DNA of 64,000 bases from an uncultured Gammaproteobacteria bacterium (GTDB lineage Bacteria; Patescibacteriota; Patescibacteriia; UBA9934; CAZDDW01): NCBI GenBank assembly GCA_964504365.1, contig CAZDDW010000003.1, positions 8,031 through 72,030 of the forward strand. The letters are read 5' to 3'. Below are positions 27,239-59,550 of this stretch, in pieces (position 1 is the first letter of the stretch; every line of letters starts with the position of its first letter). The notes under the pieces are model-generated. The model saw nothing but the letters and a program-made list of their open reading frames with translations, ran no database searches and was not told the DNA's origin. Position numbers and translations under genes: made by a program.

Positions 27239-27267
27239 TTGACAATAATACATTTTTCTGTTAATGT
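27239..27267 (+). promoter_or_regulatory. sigma70-like promoter (TTGACA, 17 nt, TAATGT)
   Basis: TTGACA ataatacatttttctgt TAATGT lies upstream of the 27315 gene, preceded by taagctt. Confidence 0.4.
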
Positions 27268-27314
27268 TTCCTATTATTCCTGATCCTTCAACTAACAATG
27301 CAGAAAGGGTTGCC

Positions 27315-27752
27315 ATGTCAACCAAACCCAGAACCTTGCGTAGAGTCATCCGTGAATTCTGTGCCGATCATGGCATCGTCTATGACCAATCTATCGTGAA
27401 CCTTCGTTTCAGAGATACGGCAATTGCCAAGTTACTCAGCCGCAAGGTACTGCAGGTAGAACAAGTACCCCAACAACAGTTCCTCGTTTGGACTGAAGCG
27501 GCCATACGTATTGGTATGCGTCAGCCGGTGTTCGAAATCACATTCCAAGATAGGCCGGACCAGACTCTAGTGATGTTCTTGAATACGACATCCGATGATG
27601 AAGAGGAAGAAGAACCTTTGACAGAGGTTGATTTACTCTTCCGTCATGAGTTGGACCGTTCAATCGATACTGATACCGACGAGGTTGTGGGCGGCAGGAC
27701 TCTTGATCAGCAAGAGTTCGATGATTGGCAAAGAAGCGATGCCAAGGACTAG
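27315..27752 (+). CDS. hypothetical acidic protein
   Basis: Start at MSTKPRTLRRV with ribosome-binding site aaaggg; EEEEE stretch; hairpin terminator at 27786..27815. Confidence 0.4.
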   Translation: MSTKPRTLRRVIREFCADHGIVYDQSIVNLRFRDTAIAKLLSRKVLQVEQVPQQQFLVWTEAAIRIGMRQPVFEITFQDRPDQTLVMFLNTTSDDEEEEEPLTEVDLLFRHELDRSIDTDTDEVVGGRTLDQQEFDDWQRSDAKD

Positions 27753-30260: not shown

Positions 30261-30983
30261 ATGTCGCTGGTATTCCAACCTCTTCCCAACGCGCTACTGG
30301 CCCTGGCCAAGCTGCCCCATGGCAGGATCATCGACGACGATGACAACACCTACACCATCATGCACGAAGGTGAGGCCGAAGCGGCCCTGGTCGCACTGAG
30401 CGAAGCTGGGTGCGACGAAGACATGGTCGAACTCATGCGCACCGAGCTGATCGCGCTCAACTTCCCAGCGGATCTAGGCGAGCTGATCCTGGCCCTGACC
30501 CAGGTCAACCTGGGCGATGACTTCGACCCGGGCGACCTGAGCTTCGAAATCTGCGAACCCGACGAGGACATCAAGGTGCCGCATGGCCAGATCATTCAGG
30601 ACGATCACCTCGCCGGCGCCTCGGCAATCACCAGCATGGAGCACGCGCTCTCCATCATGATGGTCGGTGCCAGGGATGGGTTCATTACCGCCGAACAGGG
30701 AATCTTCCTGCTCAAGCAAATGGCTGCGGCCGACCTGATGCTCACCCAGAAGCAAGTGCTGGCCCACCACGGCTACACCCGAGACACTGACGGCACCTAC
30801 CGCTCCGAGGCCCGGGACGGATCGACCAAAGTCGAAACGGCTACCCGGATCCTTCACATGGGACCGCTGACGATCCTCGTTTCCAGAATCGAGACCACCG
30901 AGATCGACGGCGAGGACGAGCCGCGCGACACGGTCGAGGATGACGAGGGCGGTGACAGCCCGACCGAGGGCGGCGGCTGGTAG
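30261..30983 (+). CDS. GC-rich hypothetical acidic protein
   Basis: Ribosome-binding site aaaggaga 6 nt before the ATG; promoter TTGACG, 17 nt, TACTCT upstream. High GC; no recognisable motif. Confidence 0.45.
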   Translation: MSLVFQPLPNALLALAKLPHGRIIDDDDNTYTIMHEGEAEAALVALSEAGCDEDMVELMRTELIALNFPADLGELILALTQVNLGDDFDPGDLSFEICEPDEDIKVPHGQIIQDDHLAGASAITSMEHALSIMMVGARDGFITAEQGIFLLKQMAAADLMLTQKQVLAHHGYTRDTDGTYRSEARDGSTKVETATRILHMGPLTILVSRIETTEIDGEDEPRDTVEDDEGGDSPTEGGGW

Positions 30984-31061: not shown

Positions 31062-31802
31062 TTATTTCTCCACCCGAACCACTTGATCAATAAACAAATT
31101 CAAAATCCGGTTTGCTTCTGGCGTTTCTTTAGATTCATTAATCACTTTATCCAATTCTTCGCTTTGTTCAAAATATTTCTTTTTATAAAAACTCATCCGT
31201 ACTACCACGTCTTTATGTTCCAACTCTGGATGAAACTGAATTGCATATATCGGCCGATCCTCAAAAACAAATACTTCGCAACAATTCTTTTTATGATTAG
31301 TAATAATATCTCTTGTCCCTGGTGGAGGTGCAATAACACTGTGGCTGTGTCCAATCTGAACAAAAAAACTTTCTGGCAAGTACCGAAAAATTGGATCGTC
31401 TTTTCCTTCTTCAGTGCAACGCATTTCAATCGTACCAATTTCCCGTAATGCAGGATCCTGAACAACCTCTCCACCAAAAGCTAAGGCAACTACTTCGTGT
31501 CCGTAACCGATAGCCAACATAGGAATTTTTTTATCATGAATTTCTTTAATTAATGCAATCAATTCTGGCAGCCTATCCATTTGTCCTTCTCCAGAAAAAT
31601 AATGTCCAGTCCCCGCCAAAATCACAGCATCCATATCATTAAGCAACGAAGGGTCTAACTGATCACGAAAAATATCAACTCGGAAAAAATTCTCTTGTGG
31701 CACATTTATTAAACGATCAAAACACAAAAACTCGTGTTCTTTCATTTCGTCTTCACGAACTTGCAGAAAAAGTATTTTTAAATTATTTCTGTTCTTGATC
31801 AT
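31062..31802 (-). CDS. class I glutamine amidotransferase-like protein whose nucleophile Cys is replaced (GYG), likely a catalytically dead paralogue
   Basis: GATase1 layout with LAIGYGHEVVA where G-C-G is expected; QFHPELEH retained; low GC like the host backbone. Confidence 0.55.
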   Translation of the reverse strand: MIKNRNNLKILFLQVREDEMKEHEFLCFDRLINVPQENFFRVDIFRDQLDPSLLNDMDAVILAGTGHYFSGEGQMDRLPELIALIKEIHDKKIPMLAIGYGHEVVALAFGGEVVQDPALREIGTIEMRCTEEGKDDPIFRYLPESFFVQIGHSHSVIAPPPGTRDIITNHKKNCCEVFVFEDRPIYAIQFHPELEHKDVVVRMSFYKKKYFEQSEELDKVINESKETPEANRILNLFIDQVVRVEK

Positions 31803-32145
31803 ACATAAATATTCATATCATAAAAAAGAAGAAGCGTCGACCCGACACATCTTCTGGACCAGCTATGCTGGCCTGCCATCCGAAGCTTTAGCGAAGGATG
31901 GCGCTCCAGCCCGGCTGGGCTGCAATGGCTCTGTATCTATTACGGATATACCTTGCCAGGTTACGCACTGATCAGCCGCGAAGCCAATGAGAACGCTCTG
32001 ACAAGACGCGAACCGGTTGGACCTTGCTAAAAAGCTTGATCCGAATGTTTGAAAATTTGACCCATAGCAGTTACCAACCGTCTGAAGCCTTTATATTATA
32101 CCATTTTTTTGCTGTCTTTTGCGCTTTTCCGTATAAGTACGTATA

Positions 32146-32166
32146 AGAAAAAGAGGACAAGCTGTC
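32146..32166 (-). terminator. terminator of the 32169 gene
   Basis: agaggacaagctgtcctct hairpin followed by a T-run on the minus strand. Confidence 0.5.
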
Positions 32167-32168
32167 CT

Positions 32169-32945
32169 CTATTGATCCACACGTTTTTCCACAGCTACAG
32201 TGGAAAAGTCAAAGCCAAAAACATGGGCCATGAAGAGCTGAAGCAGACCAGAGGCTTCAGGCGAAGGCTTAAGACCGTCATGGATTCGTTGCAGTGCATC
32301 GCGATCCTCTACGTACAAAGCCTTGTAGTAGGCCAAACGCTCTTTAAAGCTGTCTTCATCCAACTCAGCGTGGAACTGAGTGGCATAGATTGGCTTATCT
32401 GGAAAAGCAAAAGCCTGGACCAGTGAAGCTTCGCTGCGGGCCAAAACAACTGCCCCATCAGGCACCCTAGTAATGAAATCCTTATGCCCTTGCTGGGTAT
32501 TAAAACTACCGGGCAGCTGGGAGAAGATCGGATCCACTTGGCCCTCTTGGGTCAAGGAAACTGTGTAGCTTCCCATTTCCTGATCTTCTGGACGGTACTC
32601 GACTCGACCACCAAGTGCTTCAGCTAAAATCTGAGCACCAAAACAAATACCAAAAGTTGGCATGTTCTGTGTGGCTGCAGCACGAACCACCTCAAGCAAT
32701 TCTTGCCAATGTGGCAGGTCACCCTTGGACACAGCGAAAGATCCGCAGCCAGGTAACAAGAGAAGGTCATGACCATCAAGATCACTGACCCGAGGTGCCG
32801 TGGTCAGAGTATCAACTATCGTCAACTGATCTTCAGGAAGACCGCTGATTCGTTTTAGACATTCTAGTTCTGGACCTTTTGTGTCCGCTTCTCGGAATTG
32901 GTAGATGAGCACTTTCAGCTCCTTTGGTTGTTTTAAGGATTTCAT
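32169..32945 (-). CDS. class I glutamine amidotransferase-like protein (active-type, peptidase C26-like); paralogue of the 31062 gene
   Basis: GICFGAQILAEALGG with the nucleophile Cys, and QFHAELDE; same layout as the 31062 gene but with visibly higher GC. Confidence 0.6.
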   Translation of the reverse strand: MKSLKQPKELKVLIYQFREADTKGPELECLKRISGLPEDQLTIVDTLTTAPRVSDLDGHDLLLLPGCGSFAVSKGDLPHWQELLEVVRAAATQNMPTFGICFGAQILAEALGGRVEYRPEDQEMGSYTVSLTQEGQVDPIFSQLPGSFNTQQGHKDFITRVPDGAVVLARSEASLVQAFAFPDKPIYATQFHAELDEDSFKERLAYYKALYVEDRDALQRIHDGLKPSPEASGLLQLFMAHVFGFDFSTVAVEKRVDQ

Positions 32946-33042
32946 GTTTTCATGTTTTAATTATTTTCTCTTTTCTTTCATGGCCTCTGTTGAGACCAGG
33001 AAAGAGAAGAGCTGCGCGCTTGCATTGCGCGCAGCGTAGAAG

Positions 33043-34383
33043 TTAGAGAGGCAGGAACACTCGACTGCGTCGTGTCTCGATCCGATGCAATCGATCGTGG
33101 TAGCGGTGACGAACACCCTCAGCCTGATCACGATTGGCACCCACAAAGAACAGAGTGGCCTTGCCTGAACCGCGCCAGCAGCCCGGATTACCAGGAACGA
33201 TTCCAGGACGATCCGTACCGTCATAGAGCATCCCATCGACCCGATGATGAATCAGGTCTTCGTGGCCCATACCCTTAGGTATTTCAGTGTTCTCCATAAC
33301 CACACTGCAACTGCCACCGAAACGCGGAGCAACCTGATCAGCGAACGAGCAGACATACTTGGCCGCAGTACCGCGACCATTGATCTCGATCACGTAGACA
33401 AAGACCATTCCGGCGAAACGGATGACCAACAGGTCGATCCCAATAGTCCGAACCATTTCCTGGTCTGGTTGACCGCCACGACCAACACCCCGTCGAACAG
33501 CTTCGTTGCAAAACGGAATGATTGCTCGCATGATCGCCTGGTAGACTTGTACATCGACCAAGAACTGACCGACCGAGACAATATTGCCCTTGTGGGCATT
33601 GCCTTCGGTGATCTGCTGCGTTAGTTTGAGCAGTTTCCAACCGCCCAAACCAACAGCCACCTGGGCGCTGATCTCAGTCATATCGAACATGTCAGCCGGA
33701 TAAGCCGCCTCGATCACCAGTTGCTTGTGGCCATGCTCGGCCAAGAACTGAGCCACCTCAGCAGGATCCGTTCCTGGACCAACGAGCAAGTTGCTTGCTC
33801 CCCCATCAGCACCTGGGTCCTTGAGCATGACCGAATCAGTCTCCAGAACTTCGGCCGCCTCAGCCAAAACTTGTTGACGCAAGCGATCGAAATCGCCTAG
33901 ATTGCGAAACATGCTCCGCCAGGCCGTGAAGTGACCAGCTGCACCAGGCAAGAGTCGAGCACTGAGCTTGTGATCGAACAGTTCTGCCAGGTTTGGCTCG
34001 ATCGCCGCAGTATCACGGAAGCGCAGACCAAGCATCTGGCGAACCAAGAAGCTCAGCCGCGGGGTGAACAAACTCAACGGCCTTCCCTGCGCAACAGATC
34101 GTTGCACCTGTTGCAGCTCATCAGCGTAGCGCAGCAATCCCCGGGTCAGGTCACCACCAGGAACGACCACTAGCTGGTCAGCCCCAAGCTCGATCTGACG
34201 CATGTAGGCAAAAGTATCTTCGATATCCAGACGCGTCCCCTGCGTATCGGCACCAGTCACAGTCATGCCTGGGCAGACCAGGCTCCGGCTGGCGTAGTTA
34301 GCCAACCCACCGATATCAATCCCGCGACTCCGAAACGGAGTCATGTCGTCTACGTTCGTCTGCAGCCGCGTGAATGCGTCCAC
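33043..34383 (-). CDS. GC-rich putative ATP-grasp family ligase
   Basis: VMLKDPGADGGASNLL resembles the ATP-grasp glycine-rich loop (compare glutathione synthetase VKPLDGMGGASI), and VFVYVIEINGRG resembles the E-x-N motif. Likely GTG start at VDAFTRLQ with ribosome-binding site aaagagggg. Confidence 0.4.
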   Translation of the reverse strand: MDAFTRLQTNVDDMTPFRSRGIDIGGLANYASRSLVCPGMTVTGADTQGTRLDIEDTFAYMRQIELGADQLVVVPGGDLTRGLLRYADELQQVQRSVAQGRPLSLFTPRLSFLVRQMLGLRFRDTAAIEPNLAELFDHKLSARLLPGAAGHFTAWRSMFRNLGDFDRLRQQVLAEAAEVLETDSVMLKDPGADGGASNLLVGPGTDPAEVAQFLAEHGHKQLVIEAAYPADMFDMTEISAQVAVGLGGWKLLKLTQQITEGNAHKGNIVSVGQFLVDVQVYQAIMRAIIPFCNEAVRRGVGRGGQPDQEMVRTIGIDLLVIRFAGMVFVYVIEINGRGTAAKYVCSFADQVAPRFGGSCSVVMENTEIPKGMGHEDLIHHRVDGMLYDGTDRPGIVPGNPGCWRGSGKATLFFVGANRDQAEGVRHRYHDRLHRIETRRSRVFLPL

Positions 34384-34634
34384 TGGTTTCCCCTCTTTGG
34401 TTAAAATGTGCACAAAACAAAACGACCTCACTCATGAGGCCGTCCCTGTTTACCAGATTATGTCTAAATAATCAAGAACGGCCTTATGAAATAAAGAGGT
34501 CAATAATAAGTCCTACGAACATGTCGCGGTCAACTTTTCCAATTTGTGTCGCAGGATAATTCATATCGAATGTAAATCTATCATACCTTATTTTTCCGGT
34601 CAAATTAAGGGGGGCTGTGGATAGTCGACCAGGC

Positions 34635-59273: not shown

Positions 59274-59350
59274 GCCCCGTTAGCTCAGCCCGGTAGAGCA
59301 GTTGGCTCTTAACCAAACGGTCGCAGGTTCGAGTCCTGCACGGGGCACCA
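59274..59350 (+). tRNA. tRNA-Lys (anticodon CUU), CCA encoded
   Basis: Hand-folded cloverleaf: acceptor GCCCCGT/ACGGGGC, D arm GCTC/GAGC, anticodon loop CTCTTAA, T arm GCAGG-TTCGAGT-CCTGC, discriminator A, then CCA. Confidence 0.8.
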
Positions 59351-59473: not shown

Positions 59474-59550
59474 GCAGGCGTAGCTCAGTTGGATAGAGCG
59501 TCTGGCTTCGGACCAGAAGGTCGGGGGTTCGAGCCCTCCCGCCTGTACCA
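59474..59550 (+). tRNA. tRNA-Arg (anticodon UCG), CCA encoded
   Basis: Acceptor GCAGGCG/CGCCTGT (G1-U72 wobble), anticodon stem TCTGG/CCAGA with loop CTTCGGA, T arm GGGGG-TTCGAGC-CCTCC. Confidence 0.8.

What the first reader, a model, noticed from the sequence alone, without database searches (positions are those of the whole stretch)
31062..34383. GATase1 (active), GATase1 (Cys-to-Tyr, inactive) and ATP-grasp ligase cassette
Two paralogous class I glutamine-amidotransferase-like (peptidase C26-like) genes sit side by side. The lower-GC copy has GYG where the nucleophile Cys should be and is likely a dead enzyme. The higher-GC copy keeps GICFGAQ. Immediately upstream on the same strand is a GC-rich about 446 aa protein whose glycine loop (VMLKDPGADGGASNLL) and IEINGRG segment resemble ATP-grasp ligases such as glutathione synthetase or RimK. 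An ATP-grasp ligase paired with a gamma-glutamyl-hydrolase-like amidase suggests a make-and-break system for a gamma-glutamyl or other amide-linked small molecule or peptide tail. The differing GC implies the active pair was imported next to a resident paralogue.
Basis: partly seen in the sequence, partly recalled or inferred. Interest (0 to 1): 0.6.

Follow-up and report, generated by a model that had tools for sequence, protein, structure and literature searches.

The report
ATP-grasp ligase, amidase, Cys-less paralogue, RNA
In a tiny-genome (Uhrbacteria-like) bacterium, a rare peptide-bond-forming ATP-grasp ligase sits next to an active cysteine amidase, and a well-conserved amidase copy without the catalytic cysteine follows a previously unclassified folded RNA; the chemistry is probably small-peptide make-and-break, but the substrate is unknown.

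Summary
All three genes are real. The 446-aa protein (33043..34383, minus) is an ATP-grasp ligase of the PGM1/BesA/LdmS kind. This rests on a profile-to-PDB match (E=3e-17), an AF2 model (pLDDT 93) matched by Foldseek (prob 1.0), and invariant Lys/Asp/Glu-x-Asn-x-Arg.

GAT-C (32169..32945) keeps the triad Cys101-His192-Glu194.

GAT-G (31062..31802) lacks the nucleophile, but the change is Cys-to-Gly (Gly99). Tyr100 replaces the residue after the Cys. All 16 orthologues found carry this change, and dN/dS is about 0.07, so it is not a decaying gene.

The locus is syntenic in Uhrbacteria relatives (ndk ... murA) and falls into two modules.
- **Variable module.** One or two ATP-grasp ligases plus a hydrolase. 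The hydrolase is GAT-C, or in two genomes a PepT-like M20 peptidase. That swap favours amide hydrolysis over ammonia channelling.
- **Constant module.** A 267-nt structured RNA (31822..32088, z=-6.6, covarying helices, no Rfam match) directly upstream of GAT-G.

Substrate and RNA role remain unknown. Interest is moderate.

The parts
34384..34570 (-). 5' leader of the ATP-grasp gene. It holds a terminator-like hairpin (34446..34419) plus U-run and a candidate antiterminator strand (about 34484..34476, AGGCCGUUC). An SD-like GAGGGG lies just before the GTG at 34383.
   Evidence: Promoter-like and terminator-like sites. The leader is conserved at DNA level in L002 (77%/120 nt) and L001 (73%/94 nt). 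The antiterminator pairing AGGCCGUUC/GGACGGCCU changes to GGGCCGUUC/GAGCGGCUC in L001; this was read from the alignment and is an inference.
33043..34383 (-). A-type ATP-grasp amide-bond ligase (PGM1/BesA/LdmS-like), 446 aa. Catalytic signature: K139, K188 plus Gly loop, D317, E333-x-N335-x-R337.
   Evidence: Profile vs PDB: PGM1 3wvq E=3.2e-17, 8ynd 1.5e-15, LdmS 7r8p 4.6e-12, BesA 8yi6. AF2 pLDDT 93.1. Foldseek: BesA/8ynd/PGM1/LdmS E about 1e-15, TM 0.60-0.67. Invariant columns. Only 35 hits among 1.84e9 representatives.
33011..33035 (-). Terminator-like GC-rich hairpin just after the ligase stop codon.
   Evidence: 9 pairs, 8 GC, weak U tail.
32169..32945 (-). GAT-C: class I glutamine-amidotransferase / peptidase C26-like protein with an intact Cys101-His192-Glu194 triad. 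Predicted thiol amidohydrolase.
   Evidence: Pfam GATase 80 bits, Peptidase_C26 45 bits. Alignment to GMP synthase subunit A structures. Residue numbers. Fast evolving: 41% identity to the L001 copy, dN 0.59.
32143..32170 (-). Intrinsic terminator of GAT-C (GAGGACAgcttGTCCTC plus T-run).
32095..32103 (-). Extended -10 promoter TGGTATAAT. The TGnTATAAT box is present in 7 of 7 loci that cover this position.
31822..32088 (-). Conserved structured RNA, about 267 nt. A 5' domain is closed by a 22-26-bp long-range stem (P0-P1-P2). It also has a variable hairpin and a GGC-UNCG-GCUG hairpin. The 3' stem ends in a U-run 20 nt before the GAT-G ATG.
   Evidence: Conserved in L001, L002, L003, L005, L088, L212, L213, L214. 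MFE -111.7 kcal/mol, z=-6.6. Seven homologues fold independently into the same architecture. Covariation counts. No Rfam family.
31062..31802 (-). GAT-G: class I GATase-fold paralogue without the nucleophile (Gly99, Tyr100). His191 and Glu193 are kept, and a lineage-specific Cys174-Cys175 is present.
   Evidence: Pfam GATase 66.8 bits. Alignments. 16 orthologues, all Gly at this position. 70 invariant columns. dN/dS about 0.07.
30261..30983 (+). Neighbour, convergent with GAT-G: a conserved acidic protein of unknown function (ORF240 family), very GC3-rich (0.81).
   Evidence: Homologues at the same position in L005, L212, L213. GC3. No Pfam/NCBIfam/PADLOC/PHROGs hit.

Best explanation
The locus holds two adjacent modules in an Uhrbacteria-like (CPR/Patescibacteria) genome.

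**Module 1.** A PGM1/BesA/LdmS-type ATP-grasp ligase uses Mg-ATP to turn a carboxylate into an acyl-phosphate and joins it to the amine of an amino acid or short peptide. GAT-C, a Cys-His-Glu thiol amidase of the GATase1/C26 kind, hydrolyses an amide bond of that product or of a related small, possibly gamma-glutamyl-type, peptide. Together they would build and break a small amide-linked metabolite. The ligase gene is preceded by a terminator/antiterminator leader, so its expression is probably conditional.

**Module 2.** GAT-G keeps the GATase fold, His and Glu, but has Gly in place of the nucleophile. It is most likely a non-hydrolytic binding or regulatory protein, that is, a pseudoenzyme. 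It is transcribed from its own promoter through, or just after, a 267-nt structured RNA. In this window that RNA ends in an intrinsic terminator 20 nt before the start codon, which suggests attenuation control.

**Shown:** folds, motifs, synteny, conservation, RNA structure.
**Inferred:** substrate class, hydrolase role of GAT-C, non-catalytic role of GAT-G, cis-regulatory role of the RNA.
For: - **Ligase.** Profile-PDB hits, AF2/Foldseek and invariant K/D/ExNxR. A second, distant paralogue family (B-type) keeps the same motifs and sits in the same slot in relatives.
- **Characterised neighbours.** BesA makes gamma-Glu-propargylglycine (bioRxiv 10.1101/2025.10.10.681649). PGM1 joins a non-proteinogenic amino acid to a peptide (PMC8939145). 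LdmS (7R8P/7R8Q) is described as an amino acid ligase (PMC9486568).
- **GAT-C.** Intact triad. Its slot between ligase and RNA is taken by a PepT-like M20 peptidase in L088 and L212.
- **GAT-G.** Gly at the nucleophile position in 16 of 16 orthologues. dN 0.19 and dN/dS about 0.07, against 0.59/0.26 for GAT-C.
- **RNA.**. RNA and GAT-G co-occur in 9 of 9 loci, whatever lies upstream.
- **Leader attenuator.**
Against: - No substrate, product or precursor peptide was identified.
- Terminators separate the three genes, so they need not be co-expressed.
- L003/L004 have a ligase and GAT-G but no hydrolase.
- Sister-lineage A-type ligases (L007, L090, L091) have no GATase nearby.
- In L214, GAT-G follows PurC rather than an ATP-grasp gene.
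- In the long-form loci the RNA has its own terminator and a 60-250-nt spacer before GAT-G, which fits an independent sRNA as well as a leader.
- A ligase-plus-hydrolase pair acting on one bond would be futile unless the two are regulated or act on different bonds.
Confidence: 0.45

Rival explanations
1. Glutamine-dependent amidation. GAT-C is a true amidotransferase subunit that hydrolyses glutamine and passes ammonia to a carboxylate activated by the ATP-grasp enzyme, as CarA does for CarB, or GatD for MurT. The product is an amide, not a peptide. GAT-G would be a non-catalytic structural partner, like the Cys-less GATase domain of ammonia-dependent CPS I.
For: GAT-C has a complete GATase triad, and its best solved relatives are GMP synthase glutaminase subunits. 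ATP-grasp plus class I GATase is the architecture of carbamoyl-phosphate synthetase (established knowledge). CPS chains are among the profile hits.
Against: A PepT-like M20 peptidase, which cannot donate ammonia, replaces GAT-C in two genomes. A terminator-like hairpin and about 100 nt separate the ligase from GAT-C. The ligase's closest relatives are amino-acid/peptide ligases, not ammonia-using enzymes. NCBIfam GMP-synthase and other amidotransferase models are all far below their cut-offs.
Confidence: 0.2
2. GAT-G is not dead. The nucleophile has moved to Cys174 or Cys175, on the strand that by hairpin register lies opposite His191, so GAT-G would be an active thiol hydrolase with an altered pocket.
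For: C174-C175 is invariant in all Gly-variant orthologues and absent from Cys-bearing relatives, including GAT-C. His191 and Glu193 are retained. Purifying selection is strong.
Against: No coordinates could be examined, so the Cys-His geometry is untested. M. jannaschii GMP synthase subunit A also aligns a Cys at this position while keeping its canonical elbow Cys, so a Cys at this position need not be catalytic. I recall no precedent for nucleophile migration in this fold (own knowledge, not searched).
Confidence: 0.1
3. Neighbours by accident. The ndk-murA interval is a variable-insertion spot in these genomes. The ligase/hydrolase module, the RNA and GAT-G are functionally unrelated, and the RNA is a free-standing small RNA.
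For: The interval's content varies: A and/or B ligase; GAT-C, M20 or none; a 455-aa unknown in L001; PurC in L214. The ligase genes have deviant GC3 in all relatives. Each gene has its own terminator-like site. The long-form RNA loci carry their own terminators.
Against: A ligase of the same rare superfamily branch lies in the interval upstream of RNA+GAT-G in all 7 loci that cover it, on the same strand. GAT-C and GAT-G are paralogues (32-44% identity). In the window, L001 and L212 there is no room for a separate GAT-G promoter after the RNA terminator.
Confidence: 0.2

Closest known systems
PGM1 (pheganomycin peptide ligase, PDB 3WVQ) and the Streptomyces ATP-grasp peptide ligase 8YND
   Same: Best sequence-profile match (E=3e-17 and 1.5e-15), aligned over roughly residues 64-409 of the profile. 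Whole-chain fold match (TM 0.62-0.67). Same Lys, Gly loop and E-x-N-x-R.
   Different: Only about 14-18% identity. The Pfam PGM1_C domain scores below threshold (15.4 vs 22.5 bits). There is no biosynthetic cluster (amidinotransferase, PKS, precursor peptide) around it. The host is a CPR bacterium, not an actinomycete.
BesA (L-propargylglycine--L-glutamate ligase, PDB 8YI6)
   Same: Top Foldseek hit (E=2e-15). BesA makes a gamma-glutamyl dipeptide, the kind of bond a C26-type amidase would cut.
   Different: 14% identity. No Bes pathway genes are present. Gamma-glutamyl specificity here is untested.
LdmS (SAOUHSC_02373, PDB 7R8P/7R8Q), an L-amino acid ligase of S. aureus
   Same: Profile hit E=4.6e-12 and fold match TM 0.59-0.67. 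A stand-alone ATP-grasp enzyme described as an amino acid ligase (PMC9486568).
   Different: 12-13% identity and a different gene context.
Peptidase C26 / stand-alone class I GATases (PuuD, gamma-glutamyl hydrolase, Arabidopsis GGP1 PDB 9K7I; GMP synthase subunit A)
   Same: GAT-C and GAT-G match PF00117 and PF07722 above threshold. GAT-C has the Cys-His-Glu triad. GGP1 and GMP synthase subunit A are among the solved relatives.
   Different: All NCBIfam equivalog models fall below their cut-offs. GAT-G lacks the nucleophile. No partner synthetase domain is known.
Ligase/hydrolase pairs: PuuA/PuuD, cyanophycin synthetase/cyanophycinase, LysX/LysK (own knowledge)
   Same: The logic is shared: an ATP-dependent amide ligase is encoded with a hydrolase that removes the same kind of bond. 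CphA contains an ATP-grasp module and CphB has a GATase1-like fold. LysX is ATP-grasp and LysK is M20, echoing the GAT-C/M20 alternation.
   Different: None is a sequence relative of this ligase at family level. No carrier protein, polymer or modifying enzymes are encoded here. This is a resemblance of logic only.
Cys-less GATase domain of ammonia-dependent carbamoyl-phosphate synthetase I (own knowledge)
   Same: A class I GATase fold that has lost its nucleophile yet is retained next to ATP-grasp chemistry.
   Different: There it is a fused domain of one polypeptide. Here it is a separate gene with its own promoter and RNA, and the lost Cys is replaced by Gly.

Membership tests
ATP-grasp superfamily | Three-domain ATP-grasp fold | tested here: met
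   AF2 model pLDDT 93.1. Foldseek probability 1.0 to more than 200 ATP-grasp chains, top TM 0.60-0.67.
ATP-grasp superfamily | Phosphate-binding Lys residues and Gly-rich flexible loop | tested here: met
   K139 and K188 are invariant in 34 homologues. K188 in MLKDPGADGG aligns with VILKQDYGSGSDG of PGM1.
ATP-grasp superfamily | Mg-binding Asp/Glu/Asn and catalytic Arg (D...E-x-N-x-R) | tested here: met
   D317, E333, N335 and R337 are invariant. They align with FTEHNGRAT of PGM1.
ATP-grasp superfamily | ATP-dependent carboxylate-amine ligation via acyl-phosphate | not testable with these tools
   Needs an enzyme assay.
PGM1-like peptide ligases (Pfam PGM1_C PF18105 / PreAtp-grasp PF18604) | Pfam domain hits above the gathering score | tested here: not met
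   PGM1_C scores 15.4 bits against a cut-off of 22.5 in the window protein. Only 1 of 34 family members hits PGM1_C or PreAtp-grasp at E<0.01.
PGM1-like peptide ligases (Pfam PGM1_C PF18105 / PreAtp-grasp PF18604) | Closest solved relatives by profile and by fold are PGM1-type ligases | tested here: met
   This shows remote homology, not family membership at Pfam level.
Class I glutamine amidotransferase (PF00117) - GAT-C | Domain match and Cys-His-Glu triad | tested here: met
   80 bits. Cys101 in GICFGAQ, His192 and Glu194 in QFHAE.
Class I glutamine amidotransferase (PF00117) - GAT-G | Domain match | tested here: met
   66.8 bits.
Class I glutamine amidotransferase (PF00117) - GAT-G | Nucleophilic Cys at the elbow (G-x-C-x-G) | tested here: not met
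   Gly99 aligns with the Cys of GAT-C and with the Cys of the GICLGHQ motif of M. jannaschii GMP synthase subunit A. The same holds in 16 of 16 orthologues.
Peptidase C26 (gamma-glutamyl hydrolase-like, PF07722) | Domain match above the gathering score | tested here: met
   45.2 bits (GAT-C) and 31 bits (GAT-G) against 20.5. The model overlaps PF00117.
Peptidase C26 (gamma-glutamyl hydrolase-like, PF07722) | Gamma-glutamyl amide hydrolysis | not testable with these tools
   Needs an enzyme assay.
GMP synthase glutaminase subunit (GuaA-A) | NCBIfam equivalog score above cut-off | tested here: not met
   PRK00758: 76.7 and 61.1 bits against 198. TIGR00888: 71.4 and 63.8 against 172.
Any Rfam RNA family (riboswitch, RNase P, tmRNA, SRP, 6S, T-box ...) | Covariance-model match | tested here: not met
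   No minus-strand hit at E<=1 in a 5-kb query. In queries of 311-621 nt on three homologues at E<=10, the only same-strand hits scored 13.6-21.7 bits, far below their gathering scores of 42-82 bits. Nothing at gathering scores in the window.
Transcription-terminating riboswitch / attenuator | Conserved structured domain followed by an intrinsic terminator directly upstream of the regulated ORF | tested here: inconclusive
   Met in the window, L001 and L212, where the U-run ends about 20-40 nt before the ATG. In L003, L005, L088 and L213 a separate terminator and a 60-250-nt spacer follow. No ligand or alternative fold was shown.

The most novel reading that the evidence does not exclude
The 267-nt RNA is a new riboswitch (or protein/tRNA-sensing leader) class confined to Uhrbacteria. 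It controls a ligand-binding pseudo-glutaminase (GAT-G). The neighbouring rare ATP-grasp ligases and interchangeable peptidases make and degrade the small peptide or gamma-glutamyl compound that this RNA/GAT-G pair senses. That would be a self-contained small-peptide metabolism and sensing unit in a reduced CPR genome.
Probability: 0.15. Interest if true: 0.8.

Novelty: new variant of a known kind. Interest (0 to 1): 0.55.

Why it matters
CPR/Patescibacteria genomes are stripped of most biosynthesis, so a retained ATP-grasp peptide ligase with its own attenuator points to a small amide-linked metabolite that matters to these episymbionts. The ligase family is very rare, with 35 representatives among 1.84 billion.

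The nucleophile-less GATase paralogue is the best-conserved gene of the locus. That makes it a clean natural example of a pseudoenzyme retained for a non-catalytic or re-wired role.

The structured RNA that always precedes it has no Rfam family. It is long, strongly folded and covarying, so it is a concrete candidate for a new regulatory or functional RNA class. It is also mis-annotated as antisense ORFs in at least two of the public loci examined.

Tried and rejected
- **First AF2 run.** The ligase with a 3-sequence alignment failed (pLDDT 35). A 34-sequence alignment fixed it.
- **Word-indexed search with the ligase.** It found only 3 proteins.
- **GAT-G scan of genome contigs.** It was swamped by the generic motif [IL]YAxQFHPE and returned only distant GATases. 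The weak ATP-grasp hits next to them in Arthrobacter are acyl-CoA carboxylase biotin carboxylases, which are unrelated.
- **Metagenome DNA-pattern scans for the RNA.** The strict pattern gave 0 hits. The loose pattern gave 120 loci, none real by nhmmer.
- **RNA family tests.** Tested against all Rfam families, which include RNase P, tmRNA, SRP, 6S, T-box and cobalamin models; no family matched.
- **RNAalifold pairing GGUUC/GAGCC.** Rejected in favour of the extended P2 helix CUGNNAUGG/CCAUUNCAG, which covaries.
- **Small ORFs inside the RNA region.** Considered and set aside: the conservation pattern is compensatory in stems, and the apparent N-terminal extensions in P0009 and P0012 are read-through of the RNA.
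- **Defence-system and phage origin.** No PADLOC or PHROGs hits.
- **ORF240 as a LysW-like carrier.** The C-terminus is not conserved.
- **Unavailable or uninformative.** The afdb50 fold library was unavailable. Iyer et al. 2009 (PMC3268129) is not held. The listing of cluster members gave only 'hypothetical protein'.

Full report
**1. Observation**

Both small proteins match Pfam GATase (PF00117, E=2.7e-18 and 2.3e-22) and Peptidase_C26 above the gathering scores. They are about 32% identical to each other.

GC content differs as stated: 0.363, 0.486 and 0.562, against 0.458 for the window.

The surrounding genes are fusA, rpsG, rpsL, an M50 peptidase, murA, ndk, comEC and a UDP-glucose dehydrogenase. 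Close homologues are named Candidatus Uhrbacteria, so the window belongs to the Parcubacteria/Patescibacteria (CPR) group.

**2. The large protein is an ATP-grasp ligase**

The single sequence gives nothing significant: only a sub-threshold PGM1_C hit in Pfam (15.4 bits) and no NCBIfam or PDB match.

The family is very rare. The word-indexed database gave 3 proteins. A full HMMER scan of 1.84 billion representatives gave 35 hits at E<=1e-3.

A profile of 34 members matches solved ATP-grasp enzymes:
- PGM1 (3wvq): E=3.2e-17
- a Streptomyces ATP-grasp peptide ligase (8ynd): 1.5e-15
- LdmS (7r8p): 4.6e-12
- then PurD, CPS, BesA (8yi6), Ddl and biotin carboxylases

Ten members hit Pfam ATP-grasp_3 on their own.

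Invariant columns are K139, K188, G266, D317, E333, N335 and R337. These are the phosphate-binding lysines, the Mg ligands and the E-x-N-x-R motif.

With the deep alignment AF2 gives pLDDT 93.1 and pTM 0.92. With three sequences it gave pLDDT 35.

Foldseek against the PDB ranks BesA, 8ynd, PGM1 and LdmS first (E about 1e-15 to 1e-14, TM 0.60-0.67 over the whole chain). PurK, biotin carboxylase and PurT follow.

The characterised neighbours all form amide bonds to amino acids or peptides:
- BesA makes gamma-Glu-propargylglycine.
- PGM1 links a non-proteinogenic amino acid to a peptide.
- LdmS is described as an amino acid ligase.

The GTG at 34383 has a GAGGGG Shine-Dalgarno-like sequence upstream, and the N-terminal residues before Met14 are conserved in relatives. 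Public gene calls disagree on it (433, 446 or 456 aa).

**3. The two GATase paralogues**

GAT-C has Cys101 (GICFGAQ), His192 and Glu194 (QFHAE).

In GAT-G the aligned segment is AIGYGHE. Against GAT-C, against Cys-bearing relatives such as P0020 (GLCYGFH), and against GICLGHQ of M. jannaschii GMP synthase subunit A, the Cys column holds Gly99. Tyr100 occupies the next column. His191 and Glu193 remain.

All 16 orthologues found (56-100% identical) carry Gly at this position. They also share an invariant Cys174-Cys175 that Cys-bearing relatives lack.

GAT-G is not decaying. Window versus L001 (dS is saturated, so the ratios are rough):

| Gene | dN | dN/dS |
|---|---|---|
| GAT-G | 0.19 | about 0.07 |
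| ligase | 0.33 | 0.20 |
| GAT-C | 0.59 | 0.26 |
| murA | 0.08 | 0.04 |

Protein identities tell the same story: GAT-G 55-72% and GAT-C 41-45% where present, against murA 71-87%. The 'dead' copy is the best-conserved gene of the cassette.

GAT-C has only two close relatives in 5.8 billion proteins, and identity then drops to 41% or less. No recent donor is visible.

**4. Neighbourhood in relatives**

Nine further distinct loci were recovered. The frame comEC - ndk(-) ... murA - M50 - rpsL - rpsG - fusA is conserved. The interval between ndk and murA varies:

| Locus | Content |
|---|---|
| window | A ligase, GAT-C, RNA, GAT-G |
| L001 | 455-aa unknown, A, GAT-C, RNA, GAT-G |
| L002 | B, A, GAT-C, RNA, GAT-G |
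| L005 | B, GAT-C, RNA, GAT-G |
| L003/L004 | B, RNA, GAT-G |
| L088/L089 | B, A, PepT-like M20, RNA, GAT-G |
| L212 | B, PepT-like M20, RNA, GAT-G |
| L214 | RNA, PurC, GAT-G |

'B' is a second, distant paralogue family. It matches the ATP-grasp profile at E=1e-13 to 1e-21 and keeps the Lys, the Asp and E-x-N-x-R (one member has E-x-D-x-R).

The M20 proteins score 241-256 bits on TIGR01883 'peptidase T-like', just under its cut-off of 274.

A peptidase that cannot deliver ammonia takes GAT-C's slot. That is the best available argument that the second gene of the module acts as an amide or peptide hydrolase, not as an amidotransferase subunit.

A-type ligases of a sister lineage (L007, L090, L091) stand alone, without GATases.

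**5. The gap between the two GATase genes holds a structured RNA**

After the GAT-C stop codon comes an intrinsic terminator (32170..32152 plus a T-run) and then an extended -10 box, TGGTATAAT (32103..32095).

About 267 nt follow (32088..31822, minus strand). In DNA terms they are better conserved across relatives than the flanking genes. nhmmer finds the element in every locus that covers the position, including a 3' fragment at the start of L214 upstream of PurC-GAT-G.

The window copy folds to -111.7 kcal/mol, against -81.0 +/- 4.7 for shuffles (z=-6.6).

Seven homologues folded independently give the same architecture:
- A 22-26-bp closing stem joins nt 1-30 to about nt 160-200. It consists of P0 (GCUUCA/..GGAGC), P1 (GGUUGG/CCAACC) and P2 (CUGNNAUGG/CCAUUNCAG).
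- A hairpin has a different stem in each genome: GGAUC/GGUCC, GGUUC/GAACC, GAGAC/GUCUC, GAGGC/GCCUC, GAAUC/GAUUC, GAGCU/AGCUC.
- A GGC-UNCG-GCUG hairpin tolerates an inserted stem in L001 and L002.
- A long 3' stem has an apical loop (U)CCGACAAG in L001, L212 and the long forms; the window copy is shortened and lacks it. The outer pairs of the stem switch from AGAUGGU/ACCAUCU to AGAAGA/UCUUCU.

P1 shows double compensatory changes: AACUGG/CCAGUU in L001 and GAUUGG/CCAAUC in L088.

Counts on a 7-sequence alignment:

| Measure | Observed | Slid registers |
|---|---|---|
| cells paired | 83.6% | 25-50% |
| pairs changed on both sides | 7 | 1-3 |
| covariation score | 0.204 | 0.107 or less |

No shuffle out of 500 reached the observed covariation score. 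The sample is small and the structure came from one member, so this is supportive and not conclusive.

G-U pairs in the stems, the promoter and the terminator all fit the minus strand.

No Rfam 15 family matches, even with 311-621-nt queries at E<=10.

In the window, L001 and L212 the 3' stem is followed by a U-run ending about 20-40 nt before the GAT-G start. There GAT-G can only be made by read-through, which is the riboswitch or attenuator arrangement.

In L003, L005, L088 and L213 a separate terminator and a 60-250-nt spacer follow, which suits an independent small RNA. I cannot decide between the two.

Gene callers have placed antisense ORFs over this RNA in at least two public loci (for example L002 7270..7902 and L088 8464..8931).

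**6. Leader of the ligase gene**

Upstream of the GTG at 34383 is a terminator-like hairpin (34446..34419) with a U-run. The roughly 120-nt stretch around it is conserved in L002 and L001.

A segment AGGCCGUUC, about 30 nt upstream, can pair with the 5' arm of that hairpin (GGACGGCCU). In L001 both sides differ (GGGCCGUUC/GAGCGGCUC) and still pair. This was read.

It looks like a terminator/antiterminator switch. The evidence is two to three sequences, so I treat it as a lead.

**7. Composition**

- In L001 the two GATase genes have the same GC (0.385 and 0.384).
- In every relative it is the ligase genes (A and B; GC3 0.52-0.81) and the unknown convergent ORF240 family (GC3 0.79-0.81) that exceed the flanks (GC3 0.36-0.57).
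- The whole arrangement is syntenic among genomes whose synonymous sites are saturated.

A single import of 'the active pair' next to a resident copy is therefore not what the data show. Why the GC3 excess persists is unexplained. Possibilities are repeated transfer among relatives or selection on codon or RNA properties.

**8. Mechanism and rivals**

- **Best-supported reading (about 0.45).** An amino-acid/peptide ATP-grasp ligase is paired with an amide hydrolase (C26-type thiol amidase or PepT-like metallopeptidase) acting on a small amide-linked compound. A separate, constant unit consists of the structured RNA and a nucleophile-less GATase that probably binds and does not cleave.
- **Rival 1 (about 0.2).** Glutamine-dependent amidation in the manner of CarA/CarB or MurT/GatD.
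- **Rival 2 (about 0.1).** A relocated nucleophile at C174/C175.
- **Rival 3 (about 0.2).** Mere neighbours in a variable interval.

No PADLOC or PHROGs family matches any of the proteins.

**9. Novelty and verdict**

The folds are known. The new elements are:
- a very rare and divergent branch of PGM1-like ligases in CPR bacteria
- a Cys-to-Gly GATase paralogue under strong constraint
- an unclassified structured RNA tied to that paralogue

I rate this as a new variant of known kinds, with interest about 0.55. The RNA is the element most likely to repay further work.

Noticed in passing
window 31822..32088 (-); also L001 4536-4801, L002 7509-7904, L003 7617-7896, L005 7606-7898, L088 8625-9004, L212 7705-7962, L213 1-243, L214 1-85: A conserved, strongly folded RNA of 260-400 nt with covarying helices and no Rfam match. 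It is always directly upstream of the Cys-less GATase gene (or of PurC plus that gene). In at least two public loci examined it is annotated as antisense ORFs.
   Followed up: yes
window 34384..34570 (-): The leader of the ATP-grasp gene has a terminator-like hairpin plus U-run (34446..34419) and a possible antiterminator strand (about 34484..34476). It is conserved in L001 and L002, which suggests attenuation control of the ligase.
   Followed up: partly
window 33043..34383 and 30261..30983; L002 3552-6525; L003 6214-7431; L005 4804-6102 and 8785-9432; L088 4735-7302: ATP-grasp genes of both paralogue families and the ORF240 family are GC3-rich (0.52-0.81) against flanks of 0.36-0.57 in every relative, although the loci are syntenic and dS is saturated. 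The persistence of this excess is unexplained.
   Followed up: partly
window 30261..30983 (+): A conserved acidic protein of unknown function, convergent with GAT-G. Homologues (22-33% identity) lie at the same position in L005, L212 and L213. No hit in Pfam, NCBIfam, PADLOC or PHROGs.
   Followed up: partly
L214 199-1936: In one relative the Cys-less GATase gene follows a PurC-like gene directly, with a 44-nt gap. The PurC-like protein scores 218 bits on NF010568, below its cut-off of 251. The RNA lies upstream of the pair, and no ATP-grasp gene is seen on this short contig.
   Followed up: partly
L002 3552-4862, L003 6214-7431, L005 4804-6102, L088 4735-5976, L212 5130-6407: A second, distant ATP-grasp paralogue family (B-type, about 405-436 aa) occupies the ndk-proximal slot in most relatives. 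It keeps the catalytic motifs and is absent from this window.
   Followed up: partly
L001 533-1900: A 455-aa protein of unknown function lies between ndk and the ligase in the closest relative. It has no homologue in the other loci and no family hit.
   Followed up: no
window 32169..32945 versus 31062..31802: The catalytically intact copy (GAT-C) evolves about three times faster at non-synonymous sites than the Cys-less copy (dN 0.59 versus 0.19, window versus L001).
   Followed up: yes
window 27264..27752 (+): A 162-aa ORF with an acidic tail lies between rpsL and the M50 peptidase gene. It has no family hit.
   Followed up: no
window 59274..59350 and 59474..59550 (+): tRNA-Lys(CTT) and tRNA-Arg(TCG). 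These are the only Rfam or ARAGORN hits in the 64-kb window.
   Followed up: no
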